From the NCBI GenBank assembly GCA_030446015.1, contig JASUSO010000002.1, positions 1,925 to 65,924 of the forward strand: a stretch of 64,000 nt of DNA, written 5' to 3'. This DNA comes from Methanobacteriota archaeon. GTDB lineage: Archaea > Halobacteriota > Methanomicrobia > Methanomicrobiales > Methanoculleaceae. The notes below the pieces were generated by a model, which did no database searches, had not been told where the DNA came from, and saw only the letters and a list, made by a program, of their open reading frames with translations. The translations under genes and the position numbers were made by a program. Positions within the stretch are counted from its first letter, which is position 1; each line of letters starts with the position of its first letter. Of the stretch, positions 7,570 through 12,697 are shown one piece after another.

Positions 7570-10500
7570 ATGGATGGAAAGGTACAGATAAAACAGAAGA
7601 TCAACTCCGCTATCTCTTCTGGCGATCTGCGTGAGCTTGAAAAGGTGGTTTCGGACATATCAGAGACCCAGACGAGGAAGGAGAAGCGATCGCTCTACGA
7701 GCAGATGAACGCCGCCCTGGTCGAAGCGGCGTTCAGCGAAGGCCAGCCTGAACTCTTGAGCCAGCTCGTTGAACCGACCAGAGAAGAGATATTCGAACTC
7801 GCAAAACGTGCCGCCGCCATCTATAGCGAGAAGAAGGACGAAGCGTGGTTTGCGGCGATATTCACCCTGGTCGACAAACTCGACCGCAAGAGCCATCAAT
7901 CAGATATCCTCGCCCGGATCTCCCGTGATCTCGTCGAGGCCGGGGTTGAATCCGGCGACATCCACTATATCGAAAAAGCTGGAGAGGCATTCAATAAGAT
8001 CAGCATCCGCAAATACCGTTCGGCCATCCTCTCCGAGATCATCCCGCTTTTCATCCGGTTCGGGCAGAAGCATCAGAACGTCGAGATCATGCAGCAAGCC
8101 CTCCAGATGCTCCCCGAGATCGGCGACATATCGCGGCAGTCGCAACTCCACGCCGACGTGGCCCGTGCGATTGCCGGCTCCGGCATTGAGGCCGGGGATA
8201 TCGACCTTGTGATCCGGGGGCTCAGAAGTGCCACCGAGATCAACCAGAAGATCCGGCGCACCAACTCGATCGCCGACATCGTGGACGCCACCTGGAAATC
8301 CTCGCTGAAGAAAGAGATCTCCGACATCGAACAGATCCTCGACGCTCTCCCGGATCTCCCCGAAGAGCGGCGCACGGAAGTCCTCGCGATCCTGACCGAG
8401 CAGCTCCTTGACCGCCAGCGGGACAGGAAGCAGGTATACACCAGACTGCTCAGGATCGACGACGAAAAACCGTGGGCCGGCCAGACCCTCGTCCTCGAAC
8501 TCTTAAAGAAGGCCGAGCGGAGCGGGGAGCGCTGGTACCTTGAGAAGGCTTTCGAGTTCAACGCCCGGGGCGCGGGAGAAGGTCAGCTTCCCATCGAGGA
8601 GATCGTCCTCTCCGGGATCGCTGTCGTCGAGAAGAGCGGCAACCCGACCGTCCTCCTCGACATCACGCCGCTGATCGACGAGACCTGCGACGCCGCGAAA
8701 GCGGCCCAGCTCTACCGGCAGATCACCGACGCGCTCTCCCGCATGGGCGACTTCTATTACGCAATCGAGGTCATGAAGAAGGCCAGCAGCAGTGCACAGA
8801 GGATCAACGCCCAGTTTTTCGACACCAGTGTCCGCCTGATCAAGGAGGGTGTCCGGCGCGACGAGATCGGGCTCGTCCGTGAGAACATCCTCGCCACACT
8901 GGATATCGAGATCGCCGATTCGCTGGTTCACCAGGCGGTGACCGACTTCTGCAAGGAGTACGACTTCGATGAGGTCGTCAGGCACGTACCGGCCATCAAG
9001 GAACTCGCGGGCTCGCACCGCGCACAGGACACCCTGCTTCTCGAGTGCAACAGCATCCTGATCGAGCGGGGATTCGTCCGCCAGAAAGAGCCGTCGGCTC
9101 TCGTAGATCTCGTGAGCCAGATCGGGGAACAGGGTCTCCGCGAACAGGCCATCTCGACCATCGCCGTCGAGATGGCGCGGGTCGGCGTCGCCCGGAAAGA
9201 CCGGGACCTCCTCCGGCACGCGACCGGACTCACCTGTGAGATCGTGGATCAGCGGGCCCGGGCAGAGGCGATGGGGGGTATCGTCGACCAGGCTGCCGTG
9301 CTCGCCGTTGAGGACGGCGACCTCGACCTGCTCCACGGGATGCGGGTCCTCTCCACGTCTCTCCTGGAGCGGGACTACTGCCTCTTTGCGATGGGCAAGG
9401 TCGTCCACGGCCTGATCATGTACGGGATCGAACAGCTCTCGCTCCAGGCGCTGGACGAGGCGGGCCAGATCCTCTCCCAGATCGCCGACCCGGCCCTGCA
9501 ACGGCAGCTGGCCGATCCCCTCATCGAGGGCTACGTCCGGGTCGGGAGCCTGCAGGTGGCGGACCAGCTCTCCCGGGGGAAGGCGCAGGTCTTCGACGGC
9601 ATGATGGAACCGTTCGAGATCGCGCTCGACCTCCTCAAGGCCAGCACCCCAAACGAGGAGATATCGATCAAGATAGCAAGTTACGTCGATATCATGCTCG
9701 AGTACACGCAGGCTTACGCGAGCCCGATCTTTGCTGCGCCCATGTCGCTCTTCTCCCTGGAGATCAGCGGCGAATACGAGCGGACCGCCATGATCCAGCG
9801 GGTCCTCACGTTCTTCACCGATTACACGAAGGAGTTCGACTCGGCCGACCCCTATGAGGTGACGGCGTACCTGCTCGAAGGGATCGAAGGAGGGGCAGCG
9901 GCGCGGCCGGTGCTCGAACTGATGTATCGGCTCTTCGAGCACACCAGCGACACCTATGCACGCTACACCGGGATGTACCGGATCGTGAGCGCCTACTCGG
10001 CCCTCGAAGATGTTGAGCGGGCCGAGGCGATCATCCGGAGGCTCCACGAGACCATCGGCGACCTCTCCGATCCGGCCGTCCGCGCCATCATGCTCTCCGA
10101 CCTTGCCGGACTCATGGCCGGGATCGATCACGATGCGGCCAGGGAGTACCTCGCCGAGGCGCAGAAGACACTTGATGCCATACGGAGCGAGCGGGAGGCA
10201 TTCATCAGGAAGAACCTGATCTACGCCGCGCGAAGTCTCTGCGCCGTAAACCGGCAGGAGAAGGACGTCGAGTGGGCGATGGAGCAGGTCGGCAAGATCG
10301 ATGACCCGGTCGAGTACGTGGACGCTCTGGCGGCGGTCTTCGATATGGTCAGCGAACCCGCACAGAGGAAAGATATCCTCTCGTCGATGTGCCATACCGT
10401 CGTGAACATCCCCTTCCCCTACGTCCGGCTCTCGATGCTCTTTGACGTAGCACAGTTCGCCGAGACATACGGCGACGAAGAGGAGATCGAGGAACTGTTA

Positions 10501-11136
10501 AACGGCATGGAGCAGACCGCCGGCTACGTCCAGATCCCGTTCATCACCGCCATGACGCAGCAGCGGATGGCCCAGATGCTCTTCTCGTTCTACCGGGCAA
10601 GCGGGAAGCCCGCCGCCCGGGAGCGTGCGACCGATATCGTCTCCGCCATCGAGGACGACAGGATCCGGTATAACCTGACGGTCCAGCTCGAGCAGACCAT
10701 GCCCCCGTCCTGGAAGAACACAGTCTACGCCAAGATCCTCAACTGCCGGGACAAGATCCGGAACGGCGAGTACACCACCAAAGACATGGTCGCGCTCGAT
10801 AGAGCGATCCGTGCGGCACCCGACAGGGCGAAGCGGGCGGCCTACTACACGGAGCTCTACCTCATCGCCCGGGGCGCAGGACAGCAGGAGGTTGCGGACA
10901 GGATGCTGCTCTGCGCGCTCGAAGAGGCCCGGATCATCAGGCCGCTCTCGCGGCGGGCGTTCGTGCTCGGCGATATGGCGTGCCGTATCTACGCGGAGCG
11001 GTACGAAGACCGTTCAAGGGAGATCCTCGATCTGGCGGTGAGCGAGGCGCTCAACATCCGCGACTCGACGATCCGGGACGAGGTCTACGACGAACTGGAT
11101 ATGTCCATACGAATCATTCAGGAGCACTGGCTGTGA
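7570..11136 (+). CDS. Large (1188 aa) alpha-helical repeat protein of unknown function
   Basis: Long ORF with core codon style and a recurring I-x-D/x-x-x-x-R-x-x-x-L-x-x-I/L-A unit. No TM segment or catalytic motif seen. Confidence 0.8.
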   Translation: MDGKVQIKQKINSAISSGDLRELEKVVSDISETQTRKEKRSLYEQMNAALVEAAFSEGQPELLSQLVEPTREEIFELAKRAAAIYSEKKDEAWFAAIFTLVDKLDRKSHQSDILARISRDLVEAGVESGDIHYIEKAGEAFNKISIRKYRSAILSEIIPLFIRFGQKHQNVEIMQQALQMLPEIGDISRQSQLHADVARAIAGSGIEAGDIDLVIRGLRSATEINQKIRRTNSIADIVDATWKSSLKKEISDIEQILDALPDLPEERRTEVLAILTEQLLDRQRDRKQVYTRLLRIDDEKPWAGQTLVLELLKKAERSGERWYLEKAFEFNARGAGEGQLPIEEIVLSGIAVVEKSGNPTVLLDITPLIDETCDAAKAAQLYRQITDALSRMGDFYYAIEVMKKASSSAQRINAQFFDTSVRLIKEGVRRDEIGLVRENILATLDIEIADSLVHQAVTDFCKEYDFDEVVRHVPAIKELAGSHRAQDTLLLECNSILIERGFVRQKEPSALVDLVSQIGEQGLREQAISTIAVEMARVGVARKDRDLLRHATGLTCEIVDQRARAEAMGGIVDQAAVLAVEDGDLDLLHGMRVLSTSLLERDYCLFAMGKVVHGLIMYGIEQLSLQALDEAGQILSQIADPALQRQLADPLIEGYVRVGSLQVADQLSRGKAQVFDGMMEPFEIALDLLKASTPNEEISIKIASYVDIMLEYTQAYASPIFAAPMSLFSLEISGEYERTAMIQRVLTFFTDYTKEFDSADPYEVTAYLLEGIEGGAAARPVLELMYRLFEHTSDTYARYTGMYRIVSAYSALEDVERAEAIIRRLHETIGDLSDPAVRAIMLSDLAGLMAGIDHDAAREYLAEAQKTLDAIRSEREAFIRKNLIYAARSLCAVNRQEKDVEWAMEQVGKIDDPVEYVDALAAVFDMVSEPAQRKDILSSMCHTVVNIPFPYVRLSMLFDVAQFAETYGDEEEIEELLNGMEQTAGYVQIPFITAMTQQRMAQMLFSFYRASGKPAARERATDIVSAIEDDRIRYNLTVQLEQTMPPSWKNTVYAKILNCRDKIRNGEYTTKDMVALDRAIRAAPDRAKRAAYYTELYLIARGAGQQEVADRMLLCALEEARIIRPLSRRAFVLGDMACRIYAERYEDRSREILDLAVSEALNIRDSTIRDEVYDELDMSIRIIQEHWL

Positions 11137-11420
11137 AAACGATCGAGATCCGGGTCTCGGGCAGGGTGCAGGGCGTCGGGTTCCGCGCATGTATCAAGAG
11201 GATCGCCACCAACCTCGGCGTCGGCGGCGAGGCGATGAATCTTCCCGACGGGAGGGTGCTGATCACCGCAACCGCCGACCCGGTCATCCTCGATAAGTTC
11301 GTCTCCATGCTGTACGGGTGTCCCCGGGTCGTCATCAGGGATCTCGTCCAGCAGGAGATCCCTCTTGCCGCCTATCCCGAGTTCACCATCCAGCGGGGCA
11401 ACTACCAGTACAGCACATGA
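11133..11420 (+). CDS. acyP: Acylphosphatase
   Basis: GTG start overlaps the upstream stop (GTGA). Signatures SGRVQGVGFR and MNLPDGRV. Confidence 0.85.
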   Translation: MKTIEIRVSGRVQGVGFRACIKRIATNLGVGGEAMNLPDGRVLITATADPVILDKFVSMLYGCPRVVIRDLVQQEIPLAAYPEFTIQRGNYQYST

Positions 11421-12337
11421 AACTCGGCGTTTGAAAGGAGCGCATCCAGCACGATGCGCACCTGCGCGTCGATACGGTTCTGGTCGATGGAGTCGCGGAG
11501 TGCCGCACTCAACCGGGCGGAGAGATCGCTGCCCAGATAACACCGCTTTTCACCGCATTCGTAATCCGCGCTTGTGATCTCTTCACGGGCAAACCGGATG
11601 ACGACGCGATCCACCATCGAGGCTTTCTGCGGTTCGATGAGGTCGTGGATGAAACTCCCCGCCCCTTCATGAAGCATGCCGAGGTCGGGATTGAGGTCCG
11701 CCCCGATCACCGAGACGCAGCAGTTGCCATACAGCATCGCGTACCCGAACGAAAACATCGCGTTGACCGGGTCGAGGTATGGGCGGCTTGTCCTGCGGCG
11801 GAACCCAAGTTCCGGCGGGAGGGTGCGGGAGAGGATCTCGTAGTACATATCAGCGGTCAGGCGGGAGAGACGGCGCAGGTTCTCCATCGTGACCGAGACC
11901 GAGAGTTCTTCCCGGGCCTGGTGGAGGAAGTCGAGTTCTCCGGCGTAGAAGATGTCGTGCCCGGTGTGGTCGTAGAGTTCCTCGAGGAGGAGGAGCCTCG
12001 ACTGGAGGGCGGCCCGCGCGAGCGGCTGAGCGAACCGGTGGGGGCCGGCACGCTCCTGGGCGAGGCGCACCGACCCGTCCGGCCGGTAGCCATAAGGATA
12101 GAGGTGGCCGACGGGCGTGCCGTCGATATCGAAGATAGTGATGGCAGCGCCGGCTTTGAGGAGGTTCGTCACCGCCGAGGTGTGCAGGGTATGCCCGCCG
12201 ACGACCAGGAGGTGCTTCACCGACTGTATGGGATAGCGCTGGATATCGCTCCCGCGCGCGATGATGAGCTCATGGGTCGTCGCCTTGATGTGTCCCCCGT
12301 AGCCGAAGACGGGGAGCCAGGGTTCCGTCGCTGCCAT
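11402..12337 (-). CDS. cas1: Stand-alone Cas1-family protein (Cas1-solo), probably catalytically impaired
   Basis: Cas1 N-terminal beta domain (LLVVGGHTLHTSAVTNLLKAG...DGTPVG), DPVNAMFSFGYAML, LGMLH and HDLIEP motifs. No cas2 or array nearby. Confidence 0.85.
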   Translation of the reverse strand: MAATEPWLPVFGYGGHIKATTHELIIARGSDIQRYPIQSVKHLLVVGGHTLHTSAVTNLLKAGAAITIFDIDGTPVGHLYPYGYRPDGSVRLAQERAGPHRFAQPLARAALQSRLLLLEELYDHTGHDIFYAGELDFLHQAREELSVSVTMENLRRLSRLTADMYYEILSRTLPPELGFRRRTSRPYLDPVNAMFSFGYAMLYGNCCVSVIGADLNPDLGMLHEGAGSFIHDLIEPQKASMVDRVVIRFAREEITSADYECGEKRCYLGSDLSARLSAALRDSIDQNRIDAQVRIVLDALLSNAEFHVLYW

Positions 12338-12697
12338 CTGATCGCTCCAGAAATGAGTATTGGGCTGCTTTTAGTGATTAATGCATCGAATCTCCCGGAT
12401 ACAGGGAGTACACACTATCGGGGTACGGGGAGCGGAGCGGCCGGCGGGCCGGCTGTGCCGCCGCCTCACGACGCGGATATCTGAAGGGGACGCTCCGGAG
12501 GCGCCCCGGGGAGAAAGGCCATGACCGCCCGGGAAAGAGGGTGTCACGGCGTGACATGCCACGCATTGACAAACCTTTTCCGCATCGCCCGCTCATATAA
12601 CGGTAAAGTATGCCCGGCGGCCTGCCGGAGCAGCATCGCCGAAAGCACCATAGCCCGATATCGGGCATATAACCGGCGAAAAAAACGATGGGATACC

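What the first reader, a model, noticed from the sequence alone, without database searches (positions are those of the whole stretch)
11402..12337. Orphan Cas1 with the first catalytic Glu replaced and no CRISPR or casposon context
At the helix where Cas1 carries the metal-binding Glu (E. coli E141; consensus LRGxEGxAAxxY) this protein reads LRRLSRLTADMYY. The His (LGMLH) and the D/E motif (HDLIEP) are retained. There is no cas2, array, family B polymerase or terminal inverted repeat in 64 kb, and the codon style is native. This fits my recollection of the described Methanomicrobiales Cas1-solo group, whose function is unknown. It suggests a domesticated, non-integrase Cas1, for example for DNA binding, repair or regulation.
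Basis: partly seen in the sequence, partly recalled or inferred. Interest (0 to 1): 0.65.

Follow-up and report, generated by a model that had tools for sequence, protein, structure and literature searches.

The report
Known inactive stand-alone Cas1 (Cas1-solo)
This gene is an ordinary member of the already published "Cas1-solo group 1", a stand-alone relative of the CRISPR integrase Cas1 that nearly all Methanomicrobiales methanogens inherit vertically, that lacks an intact active site, and whose function is still unknown.

Summary
Window 11402-12337 (-) encodes an intact 311-aa Cas1-fold protein (Pfam 1.7e-49; AlphaFold pLDDT 92.6). The catalytic Glu is replaced by Ser158, and His223, Asp232 and Glu235 are kept. 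The Methanoculleus assembly has no second cas1, no cas2, cas3 or cas4, and no CRISPR array. Its only PolB is on another contig, and there are no terminal inverted repeats.

It is not new. It belongs to Cas1-solo group 1 (Makarova 2013; Krupovic 2014), and the published alignment shows the same ENLRRLSRLT.DMYYE motif in M. marisnigri.

Measured here:
- Orthologues occur in 148 of 151 Methanomicrobiales genomes (33 of 33 genera) and in none outside the order.
- They form one clade (100/100) that follows host families.
- dN/dS is 0.16.
- Across the family the Glu position is variable and almost never Glu, and the His is kept in only about half, so the old metal site is not what selection maintains.

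Context leads:
- An acylphosphatase gene lies tail-to-tail with it in 124 of 148 genomes.
- An order-specific 1188-aa protein was adjacent in all 28 genomes where it was found.
- A rare promoter-proximal motif, CGATGnnTTAAT, is conserved upstream.

Most likely it is an exapted, non-integrase Cas1-fold binding protein. The function remains inferred.

The parts
11402..12337 (-). cas1-solo (group 1) coding sequence, 311 aa, intact
   Evidence: ORF list. Pfam PF01867 E 1.7e-49. AF2 pLDDT 92.6 and Foldseek top hits are Cas1 and casposase, TM up to 0.84.
11864..11866 (-). Codon of Ser158, at the position of the catalytic Glu (E. coli E141)
   Evidence: Alignments to 7cr6 and 4n06. Canonical proteins have E 20/20; 48 non-redundant family members have none, H26 S8 Y5 F3 Q3. 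Codon checked.
11669..11671 (-). Codon of His223 (E. coli H208 equivalent). Kept here, but only in 26 of 48 family members.
11633..11644 (-). D232-L-I-E235 (E. coli D218/D221 equivalents). D232 is invariant in the family; position 235 is acidic in 43 of 48.
11870..11875 (-). R155-R156, Arg pair just before the former Glu. R156 is family-invariant and replaces the canonical Gly (G in 19 of 20 canonical Cas1). R155 is R in 45 of 48 members, against M15/R3/L2 in canonical Cas1.
12377..12388 (-). Promoter-proximal motif CGATGCATTAAT, 51 nt before the ATG, likely part of the gene's own BRE/TATA region. A GGAG lies 6 nt before the ATG.
   Evidence: The last ~60 nt before the ATG are conserved among 8 Methanoculleus species. 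The motif is present 47-71 nt upstream in 89 of 110 distinct upstream regions across the order, against about 1% of control windows. It occurs only 3 times in the 2.1-Mb genome.
11133..11420 (+). Acylphosphatase gene (95 aa), convergent with cas1-solo. The 3' ends overlap by 19 bp. GTG start overlaps the TGA stop of the upstream gene (GTGA).
   Evidence: Pfam PF00708 E 3.4e-15. NCBIfam acylphosphatase models. Sequence. Convergent within 600 bp of the cas1-solo 3' end in 124 of 148 genomes, 31 of 33 genera, and in 79 of 80 named loci.
7570..11136 (+). 1188-aa protein without any family match, specific to the order. It was next to acylphosphatase/cas1-solo in every genome where it was detected.
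   Evidence: No Pfam, NCBIfam or PADLOC hit. Found in 28 of 301 phylum genomes, all within the order; in each it lies 272-386 bp from cas1-solo (coordinates).

Best explanation
The gene is a member of Cas1-solo group 1, a Cas1 homologue fixed in the common ancestor of Methanomicrobiales and inherited vertically since as a near-core chromosomal gene with its own promoter.

It keeps the complete two-domain Cas1 fold but not the Cas1 metal site. The Glu is gone (Ser here, variable elsewhere). The His is dispensable across the family. The two glycines flanking the Glu have become an invariant Arg156 and a mostly basic residue 159. I therefore read it as an exapted, non-integrase Cas1-fold protein that works by binding, not by cutting or joining DNA.

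Shown here: identity, distribution, vertical descent, purifying selection, loss of the catalytic set, independence from CRISPR and casposons.

Inferred, about 35-40% likely: it binds nucleic acid, probably an ssDNA 3' end or branched DNA, in the old substrate channel. That channel's arginines and polar residues (R155, R182, N192, Y199, K238, Q94, Y165) are retained or reinforced. It probably binds as a Cas1-type dimer. A role in a complex with the products of the neighbouring acylphosphatase and 1188-aa genes is the main alternative.
For: Identity:
- Pfam and NCBIfam Cas1 hits.
- AF2 pLDDT 92.6 and Foldseek matches to Cas1 and casposase.
- The published group-1 alignment contains the M. marisnigri orthologue with the same motif.

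Distribution and descent:
- 148 of 151 genomes and 33 of 33 genera in the order, with no stops.
- Outside the order the best hit is 26% identical at E 1e-23.
- All 80 best named loci among 185,579 species are Methanomicrobiales.
- The clade has 100/100 support, and host families f1, f3, f4 and f6 are monophyletic within it.

Selection:
- dN/dS is 0.16 over 25 Methanoculleus sequences, equal to the neighbouring acylphosphatase at 0.155.

Dead site:
- Column 158 has no E in 48 non-redundant members, and E in 1 of 161 in the full set.
- Column 223 is H in 26 of 48.
- The four-residue combinations include FHDE, HNDD and YHDE.

Kept channel residues and new invariant arginines.

No CRISPR or casposon parts.

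Own conserved promoter element.
Against: - No experiment exists on any member, and nothing here measures binding.
- The protein has net charge -7 and pI 6.0. The family median pI is 6.2 against 8.8 for canonical Cas1, which is not what a general DNA binder looks like.
- Family-specific invariant polar residues (H49, E134, E167, D232, D243, R114, R156, R171, R265) could form a new catalytic or ligand site.
Confidence: 0.85

Rival explanations
1. Protein-protein module. Cas1-solo is a non-catalytic subunit of an order-specific complex with the acylphosphatase and, where present, the 1188-aa helical protein encoded beside it. Its ligand would be protein or a phosphorylated small molecule, not DNA.
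For: - Acylphosphatase is convergent and usually overlapping (median gap 9 bp) in 124 of 148 genomes, 31 of 33 genera, and in 79 of 80 named loci.
- The 1188-aa gene is also restricted to the order. It lies 272-386 bp from cas1-solo in all 28 genomes where it was detected.
- The pair persists in family f4 after the big gene is gone.
- Genus g17 lost the adjacency. It has the most divergent Cas1-solo and has lost the otherwise conserved R155, D163 and K238.
- The acidic pI of Cas1-solo against pI 9.1 for the acylphosphatase.
Against: - The genes are convergent, so they are not co-transcribed.
- Overlapping 3' ends leave almost no neutral breakpoint, so the pair may persist without a functional link.
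- The acylphosphatase keeps its catalytic Arg and Asn motifs and looks like an ordinary enzyme.
- The big gene was not detected in about 40% of the order's genomes that keep cas1-solo.
- No fusions were seen among 120 listed homologues.
Confidence: 0.2
2. It is still an enzyme. The Cas1 fold has acquired a remodelled active site, for example built from invariant E134, E167, D232, D243 and H49 with R156, and catalyses a different reaction on nucleic acid or another phosphate ester.
For: - Many family-specific invariant charged residues that canonical Cas1 lacks.
- Strong purifying selection.
- D232 and D243 are invariant.
Against: - By helical periodicity, E167, D163 and R156 face away from the old site. 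This is inference, not measured.
- D232 and D243 are also invariant in canonical Cas1, so they may be structural.
- No constant set of metal ligands survives across the family at columns 158 and 223.
Confidence: 0.12
3. Decoy or inhibitor. A dead Cas1 that heterodimerises with incoming casposases or CRISPR Cas1 and poisons integration, like truncated or dead transposases that repress transposition.
For: - It keeps the whole Cas1 fold, including the N-terminal dimerisation domain, which is unusually conserved here (W7, G12, G14, L24, L43, G47, H49).
- Casposons occur in Methanomicrobia.
Against: - It is present in essentially every genome of the order, whether or not another Cas1 is there.
- With this query, about two thirds of the genomes show no second Cas1-like match.
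- Identity to canonical Cas1 is only 21-30%, so shared interfaces are doubtful.
- A core gene with a housekeeping-like dN/dS is unusual for a counter-MGE factor.
Confidence: 0.04
4. Remnant. An orphaned cas1 left by a decayed CRISPR-Cas locus or casposon, on its way to becoming a pseudogene.
For: No cas2, array, PolB or TIRs nearby, and one catalytic residue lost.
Against: - Intact in 148 of 151 genomes with no internal stops.
- dN/dS 0.16.
- Conserved synteny and promoter element across the order.
- Native codon usage.
- Monophyletic and congruent with host families.
Confidence: 0.01

Closest known systems
Cas1-solo group 1 (Makarova, Wolf & Koonin 2013, Biochem Soc Trans 41:1392; Krupovic et al. 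2014, BMC Biol 12:36, PMC4046053)
   Same: It is a stand-alone Cas1 homologue found only in Methanomicrobiales, with no sign of HGT, an incomplete catalytic tetrad and no CRISPR or PolB context. The M. marisnigri and M. bourgensis members of the published alignment share the query's motif and are 79-85% identical relatives.
   Different: Nothing differs in kind; this is a new species-level member. Added here: frequency (148 of 151 genomes), dN/dS, per-column statistics, the acylphosphatase and 1188-aa neighbourhood, and the upstream motif.
CRISPR adaptation integrase Cas1 (e.g. 4n06 A. fulgidus, 7cr6 Synechocystis I-D, E. coli YgbT)
   Same: Same two-domain fold (TM up to 0.84). Shares Q94, Y165, R182, N192, Y199, D232, E/D235 and D243.
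   Different: It has no Glu at the E141 position. The flanking glycines are replaced by Arg or Lys. There is no cas2, array or leader. It has an acidic pI and sits on a long separate branch.
Casposases (Cas1-solo group 2; 6opm M. mazei casposase)
   Same: Cas1 fold without CRISPR (Foldseek E 7e-17 to 6opm).
   Different: Casposases keep all four catalytic residues, sit in PolB-containing elements with TIRs and TSDs, and are patchily distributed. None of this holds here.

Membership tests
Cas1 superfamily (PF01867 / TIGR00287) | Profile match above the curated cut-off | tested here: met
   168.9 bits against 22.3; 135.1 bits against 71.7.
Cas1 superfamily (PF01867 / TIGR00287) | N-terminal beta-sandwich plus C-terminal alpha-helical domain | tested here: met
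   AF2 pLDDT 92.6, strands 7-79 and helices 88-302. Foldseek to 4n06, 7cr6, 6opm and 7mi9, TM 0.6-0.84.
Cas1 superfamily (PF01867 / TIGR00287) | Catalytic tetrad E-H-D-D/E | tested here: not met
   The query has S158, H223, D232, E235.
CRISPR-Cas adaptation module Cas1 | cas2 partner gene | tested here: not met
   No PF09827 match in the whole assembly; the controls rang.
CRISPR-Cas adaptation module Cas1 | CRISPR array, or other cas genes, in the genome | tested here: not met
   No array in the window or the assembly. No Cas3 or Cas4 above cut-off. Caveat: the assembly is 90% complete.
Casposase (Cas1-solo group 2) | Family B DNA polymerase in the same element | tested here: not met
   The only PolB is on contig C83; the window is on C7.
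Casposase (Cas1-solo group 2) | Terminal inverted repeats or target-site duplication | tested here: not met
   Only short, imperfect inverted repeats inside coding sequence. The flanks are syntenic housekeeping genes across the order.
Casposase (Cas1-solo group 2) | All four catalytic residues conserved | tested here: not met
Casposase (Cas1-solo group 2) | Patchy, mobile distribution | tested here: not met
   148 of 151 genomes. The tree follows host families.
Cas1-solo group 1 | Restricted to Methanomicrobiales | tested here: met
   Inside the order E <= 6e-49; outside the order the best E is 1e-23 at 26% identity. All 80 named best loci are Methanomicrobiales.
Cas1-solo group 1 | Vertical inheritance, no HGT | tested here: met
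   Clade support 100/100. Families f1, f3, f4 and f6 are monophyletic; f2 and f5 are unresolved, not contradicted. Synteny is conserved.
Cas1-solo group 1 | Incomplete catalytic set | tested here: met
.
Cas1-solo group 1 | Groups with the published members | tested here: met
   The published M. marisnigri JR1 and M. bourgensis MS2 rows carry the same motifs. The M. bourgensis protein P0015 is 79% identical.

The most novel reading that the evidence does not exclude
Cas1-solo is one part of an undescribed three-gene unit specific to Methanomicrobiales. The unit consists of the 1188-aa helical scaffold, an acylphosphatase translationally coupled to it, and the dead Cas1 encoded tail-to-tail with the acylphosphatase. 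cas1-solo is driven from a rare conserved promoter element (CGATGnnTTAAT). In this reading the Cas1 fold has been exapted as a binding subunit for a cellular process unrelated to CRISPR. The small ferredoxin-fold acylphosphatase might occupy a Cas2-like partner position.
Probability: 0.15. Interest if true: 0.6.

Novelty: already known. Interest (0 to 1): 0.27.

Why it matters
The family is a clean natural case of a CRISPR or transposon integrase fold being domesticated into a core cellular gene of a whole archaeal order. It has gone without a function for more than a decade. This particular locus adds no new kind of thing.

- the gene is near-universal and under housekeeping-level constraint;
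- the old metal site is not what is conserved;
- there is a defined set of new invariant residues to mutate;
- there are two candidate partners (acylphosphatase and the 1188-aa protein);
- there is a conserved promoter element.

Tried and rejected
1. Regulon idea. CGATGNNTTAAT occurs only 3 times in the genome. One copy lies about 48 nt upstream of an Exo_endo_phos nuclease gene that follows a RecQ/HRDC-like ORF, and it is conserved there in 9 Methanoculleus genomes.
   - That gene is accessory: 9 of 14 Methanoculleus genomes and 0 of 67 others.
   - A pattern search in 14 genomes gave 35 hits against 12 for the reversed control.
   - The 27 hits not upstream of cas1-solo or the nuclease gene were examined. 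They lie mostly inside coding sequence and share no orthologous downstream gene.
   - So there is no order-wide regulon.
2. CRISPR arrays. Three spaced-repeat candidates in the assembly are tandem units with identical 'spacers' (the Methanoculleus mosaic repeat), not arrays.
3. Defence context. PADLOC gives only Cas1 models for the gene and nothing for either neighbour.
4. Rfam. No family reaches threshold in the window.
5. A His/His/Asp/Glu replacement metal site (H158 plus H223). It is present in only 26 of 161 sequences, and F, Y, A or S at position 158 are more common in the rest, so I rejected it as a family feature.
7. Makarova 2013 (PMC5898231) is not held. Its content is cited through Krupovic 2014 and Smaruj 2023.
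8. Model coordinates are not exposed, so the spatial clustering of invariant residues could not be measured.

Full report
OBSERVATION. Window 11402-12337 on the minus strand is an intact 311-codon ORF. It matches Pfam Cas_Cas1 over residues 10-279 (E 1.7e-49) and TIGR00287. In HMMER alignments to solved structures, the query's 'LRRLSRLTADMYY' lies against 'vRGiEGlAAreYF' of Synechocystis Cas1 (7cr6) and 'LGIEGKASKHYW' of A. fulgidus Cas1 (4n06). The metal-binding Glu therefore corresponds to Ser158. 'LGMLHE' and 'HDLIEP' carry the His and the two acidic residues (codons verified). Against 20 canonical Cas1 proteins taken from genomes of the same phylum, the four columns are E 20/20, H 20/20, D 20/20 and E/D 20/20.

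ABSENCE OF CRISPR OR CASPOSON CONTEXT.
- The assembly (2.10 Mb, 105 contigs, 90% complete) contains only this Cas1 match.
- It has no Cas2, and no Cas3-core or Cas4 above cut-off.
- The window has no array.
- Three spaced-repeat candidates elsewhere are tandem units with identical 'spacers'.
- The single family B polymerase is on contig C83, while the window is on C7.
- Inverted repeats around the gene are short, imperfect and coding.
- The neighbours are housekeeping genes: MobB/MoaE, phosphoglucomutase, a 1188-aa protein, acylphosphatase, two PaaK-type ligases, an ACT protein, Fae/Hps and Mer.
- GC3 and RSCU match those neighbours.

WHAT IT IS. The closest proteins are annotated Cas1 of Methanoculleus (91% to M. 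chikugoensis), and the best named loci are Methanoculleus sp. MH98A, M. sediminis and M. chikugoensis. Krupovic et al. 2014 describe 'Cas1-solo group 1' as exclusive to Methanomicrobiales, without evidence of HGT, and with no member having the full set E141/H208/D218/D221. Their supplementary alignment lists M. marisnigri JR1 and M. bourgensis MS2 with 'ENLRRLSRLTTDMYYEILSR', which is the query's motif. A 2023 review repeats this and reports no function. Further literature searches found no functional study. The locus is therefore a new species-level member of a known group.

DISTRIBUTION AND DESCENT.
- A six-frame search of 151 Methanomicrobiales species genomes finds an intact orthologue in 148. 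That is 120 of 122 high-quality genomes and 33 of 33 genera, at 35-92% identity with no internal stops.
- In 301 genomes of the phylum, every hit outside the order is a distant canonical Cas1 (best E 1e-23, 26% identity). That compares with E <= 6e-49 for all listed best-per-genome matches inside the order, including one truncated at a contig end.
- A pattern-plus-tblastn scan of 185,579 species genomes returns only Methanomicrobiales among the best 80 loci.
- In an ML tree, the solo proteins form one clade (100/100) on a long branch away from canonical Cas1. Host families f1, f3, f4 and f6 are each monophyletic within it.
- With this query, about two thirds of the genomes show no second Cas1-like match, so the gene does not depend on a resident CRISPR system.

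SELECTION AND ACTIVE SITE.
- Pairwise Nei-Gojobori dN/dS over 25 Methanoculleus sequences has a median of 0.16, the same as the adjacent acylphosphatase at 0.155.
- In 48 members filtered to under 75% identity, the Glu column is H26/S8/Y5/F3/Q3, and the His column is H in only 26.
- Over all 161 sequences, the four-residue combinations include SHDE, FHDE, HHDE, HNDD and YHDE. Glu at column 158 appears once, together with Ser and Asn at columns 223 and 235.
- D232 and D243 are invariant, but they are also invariant in canonical Cas1.
- Selection therefore does not maintain the metal site. Keeping His223 in Methanoculleus is a lineage trait.
- What the family does conserve and canonical Cas1 does not: W7, H49, R114, G133-E134, R156 (canonical Gly in 19 of 20), M164, E167, R171 and R265. 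Residue 155 is mostly Arg and residue 159 mostly Arg or Lys.
- General Cas1 residues that, from my recollection of the E. coli and casposase structures, line the substrate channel are kept: Q94, Y165, R182, N192, Y199 and K238.

STRUCTURE. AlphaFold2 with a 66-sequence alignment gives pLDDT 92.6 and pTM 0.89, with the usual N-terminal beta domain and C-terminal helical domain. Foldseek against the PDB returns Cas1 and casposase chains only (E down to 6e-19, TM up to 0.84). Coordinates are not exposed, so I could not measure where the invariant residues cluster. By helical periodicity on helix 151-170, R155 shares the face of residue 158, while R156, D163, E167 and R171 form a stripe on the opposite face. 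This is inference.

CONTEXT.
- The acylphosphatase gene (Pfam 3.4e-15) ends 19 bp inside the 3' end of cas1-solo on the other strand.
- Combining the coordinates of two order-wide searches, an acylphosphatase gene lies convergent within 600 bp of the cas1-solo 3' end in 124 of 148 genomes (median gap 9 bp), in 31 of 33 genera. The exceptions are genus g17 (0 of 21), the single g22 genome and two fragmented assemblies. It is also there in 79 of 80 named loci.
- The acylphosphatase keeps its catalytic Arg and Asn motifs.
- The 1188-aa gene upstream overlaps the acylphosphatase start (GTGA) and has no Pfam, NCBIfam or PADLOC match. It was found only inside the order (28 of 301 phylum genomes), and in all 28 it sits 272-386 bp from cas1-solo.
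- In family f4 the large gene is absent, but the acylphosphatase/cas1-solo pair remains.
- g17 lost the adjacency. It has the longest branches and has lost R155, D163 and K238.
- These facts suggest a link, but convergent genes are not co-transcribed, and overlapping ends leave no neutral breakpoint.

PROMOTER ELEMENT.
- The last ~60 nt before the ATG are conserved among Methanoculleus species whose remaining intergenic sequence does not align.
- The core, CGATGnnTT[A/C/T]AT, is found 47-71 nt before the first codon in 89 of 110 distinct upstream regions across the order, against about 1% of control windows. The stricter form CGATGNNTTAAT occurs only three times in this genome.
- I tested whether it marks a regulon. 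It also precedes an accessory Exo_endo_phos gene in Methanoculleus. In 14 genomes of other lineages, the 27 remaining hits examined are mostly intragenic and share no orthologous downstream gene.
- It is best read as the gene's own unusual core promoter or operator.

MECHANISM. The supported part (confidence about 0.85) is that this is an exapted Cas1-fold protein that no longer acts as a metal-dependent integrase or nuclease and serves a CRISPR-independent cellular role. For what it does, I favour ligand binding in the old substrate channel, most likely an ssDNA 3' end or branched DNA bound by a Cas1-type dimer (about 35-40%). The channel residues are kept and extra arginines have been added next to the former Glu. 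Against this, the family is much less basic than canonical Cas1 (median pI 6.2 against 8.8; net charge -7 here).

Rivals:
- a protein-protein role with the acylphosphatase and the 1188-aa protein (about 20%);
- a remodelled enzyme (about 12%);
- a dominant-negative decoy for casposases or Cas1 (about 4%);
- a decaying remnant (about 1%, contradicted).

VERDICT. The thing is already known (Cas1-solo group 1), so interest is modest. The neighbourhood statistics, the per-column picture of the degenerate site, the list of new invariant residues and the promoter element are incremental additions that could guide experiments. Earlier notes of this scan on other genomes reached the same identification. 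One had already proposed the link to the 1188-aa protein and the acylphosphatase, which I quantified here but could not prove.

Noticed in passing
window 12377-12388 (-), and upstream of cas1-solo in loci L003-L051 and L073-L152: A rare motif CGATGnnTT[A/C/T]AT sits 47-71 nt before the cas1-solo start in 89 of 110 distinct upstream regions across the order. The stricter form CGATGNNTTAAT occurs only 3 times in the 2.1-Mb genome. It is probably an unusual core promoter or operator.
   Followed up: yes
own genome G000:C102:1483-2466 (-) (locus L159): A 322-328-aa Exo_endo_phos (PF03372) gene directly follows a 785-aa ORF with a RecQ/HRDC-like C-terminus. It carries the same CTCGATGnnTTAATGA motif about 48 nt upstream, and the motif is conserved in all 9 Methanoculleus genomes that have the gene. 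The gene is accessory (9 of 14 Methanoculleus, none elsewhere in the order).
   Followed up: partly
window 7570-11136 (+): A 1188-aa protein with no Pfam, NCBIfam or PADLOC match. It was found only in Methanomicrobiales (28 of 301 phylum genomes, down to 23% identity). In every one of those genomes it lies directly upstream of the acylphosphatase that abuts cas1-solo. Its stop overlaps the acylphosphatase GTG start (GTGA).
   Followed up: partly
window 11402-11420: cas1-solo and the acylphosphatase gene overlap by 19 bp at their 3' ends on opposite strands. Similar overlaps or gaps of a few bases are the rule across the order (median gap 9 bp), so the two C-termini are encoded on shared DNA.
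   Followed up: partly
window about 12540-12612 (cas1-solo / paaK1 intergenic): A second conserved block, 'GGGCATACTTTACCGTTATATGAGCGGGCGGTGCGGAAAAGGTTTGTCAATGCGTGGCATG', is followed by the palindrome GTCACGCCGTGAC. The block is shared by 6 of 8 Methanoculleus species (the palindrome is mismatched in some). It is probably the paaK operon promoter or operator.
   Followed up: no
own genome C50:23903-23995, C53:8121-8244, C93:1-141: Tandem copies (period about 47-53 nt) of a hairpin-rich unit of the type 'GTCGCCTTTCGCACCTGACGGTGCTCATGCTCC...', two of the three at contig ends. They are not CRISPR because the 'spacers' are identical. They match the Methanoculleus mosaic repeat noted earlier in this scan.
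   Followed up: partly
loci L047, L048, L050 (genus g17) and L046 (g22): In these lineages cas1-solo has left the acylphosphatase neighbourhood. It evolves faster, and in g17 it has lost the otherwise near-invariant R155, D163 and K238. The g22 protein has Glu at the catalytic column but Ser and Asn at the His and second-acid columns.
   Followed up: partly
loci L184, L186, L187, L188 (genome G003): Four identical copies of a sequence containing 'GATTTCTCCGATGGTTTAATGAGGAGTTTT', each inside an opposite-strand open frame of 419-500 aa (possibly cut at the locus ends), dispersed over the chromosome. This is probably an IS or other repeated element.
   Followed up: no
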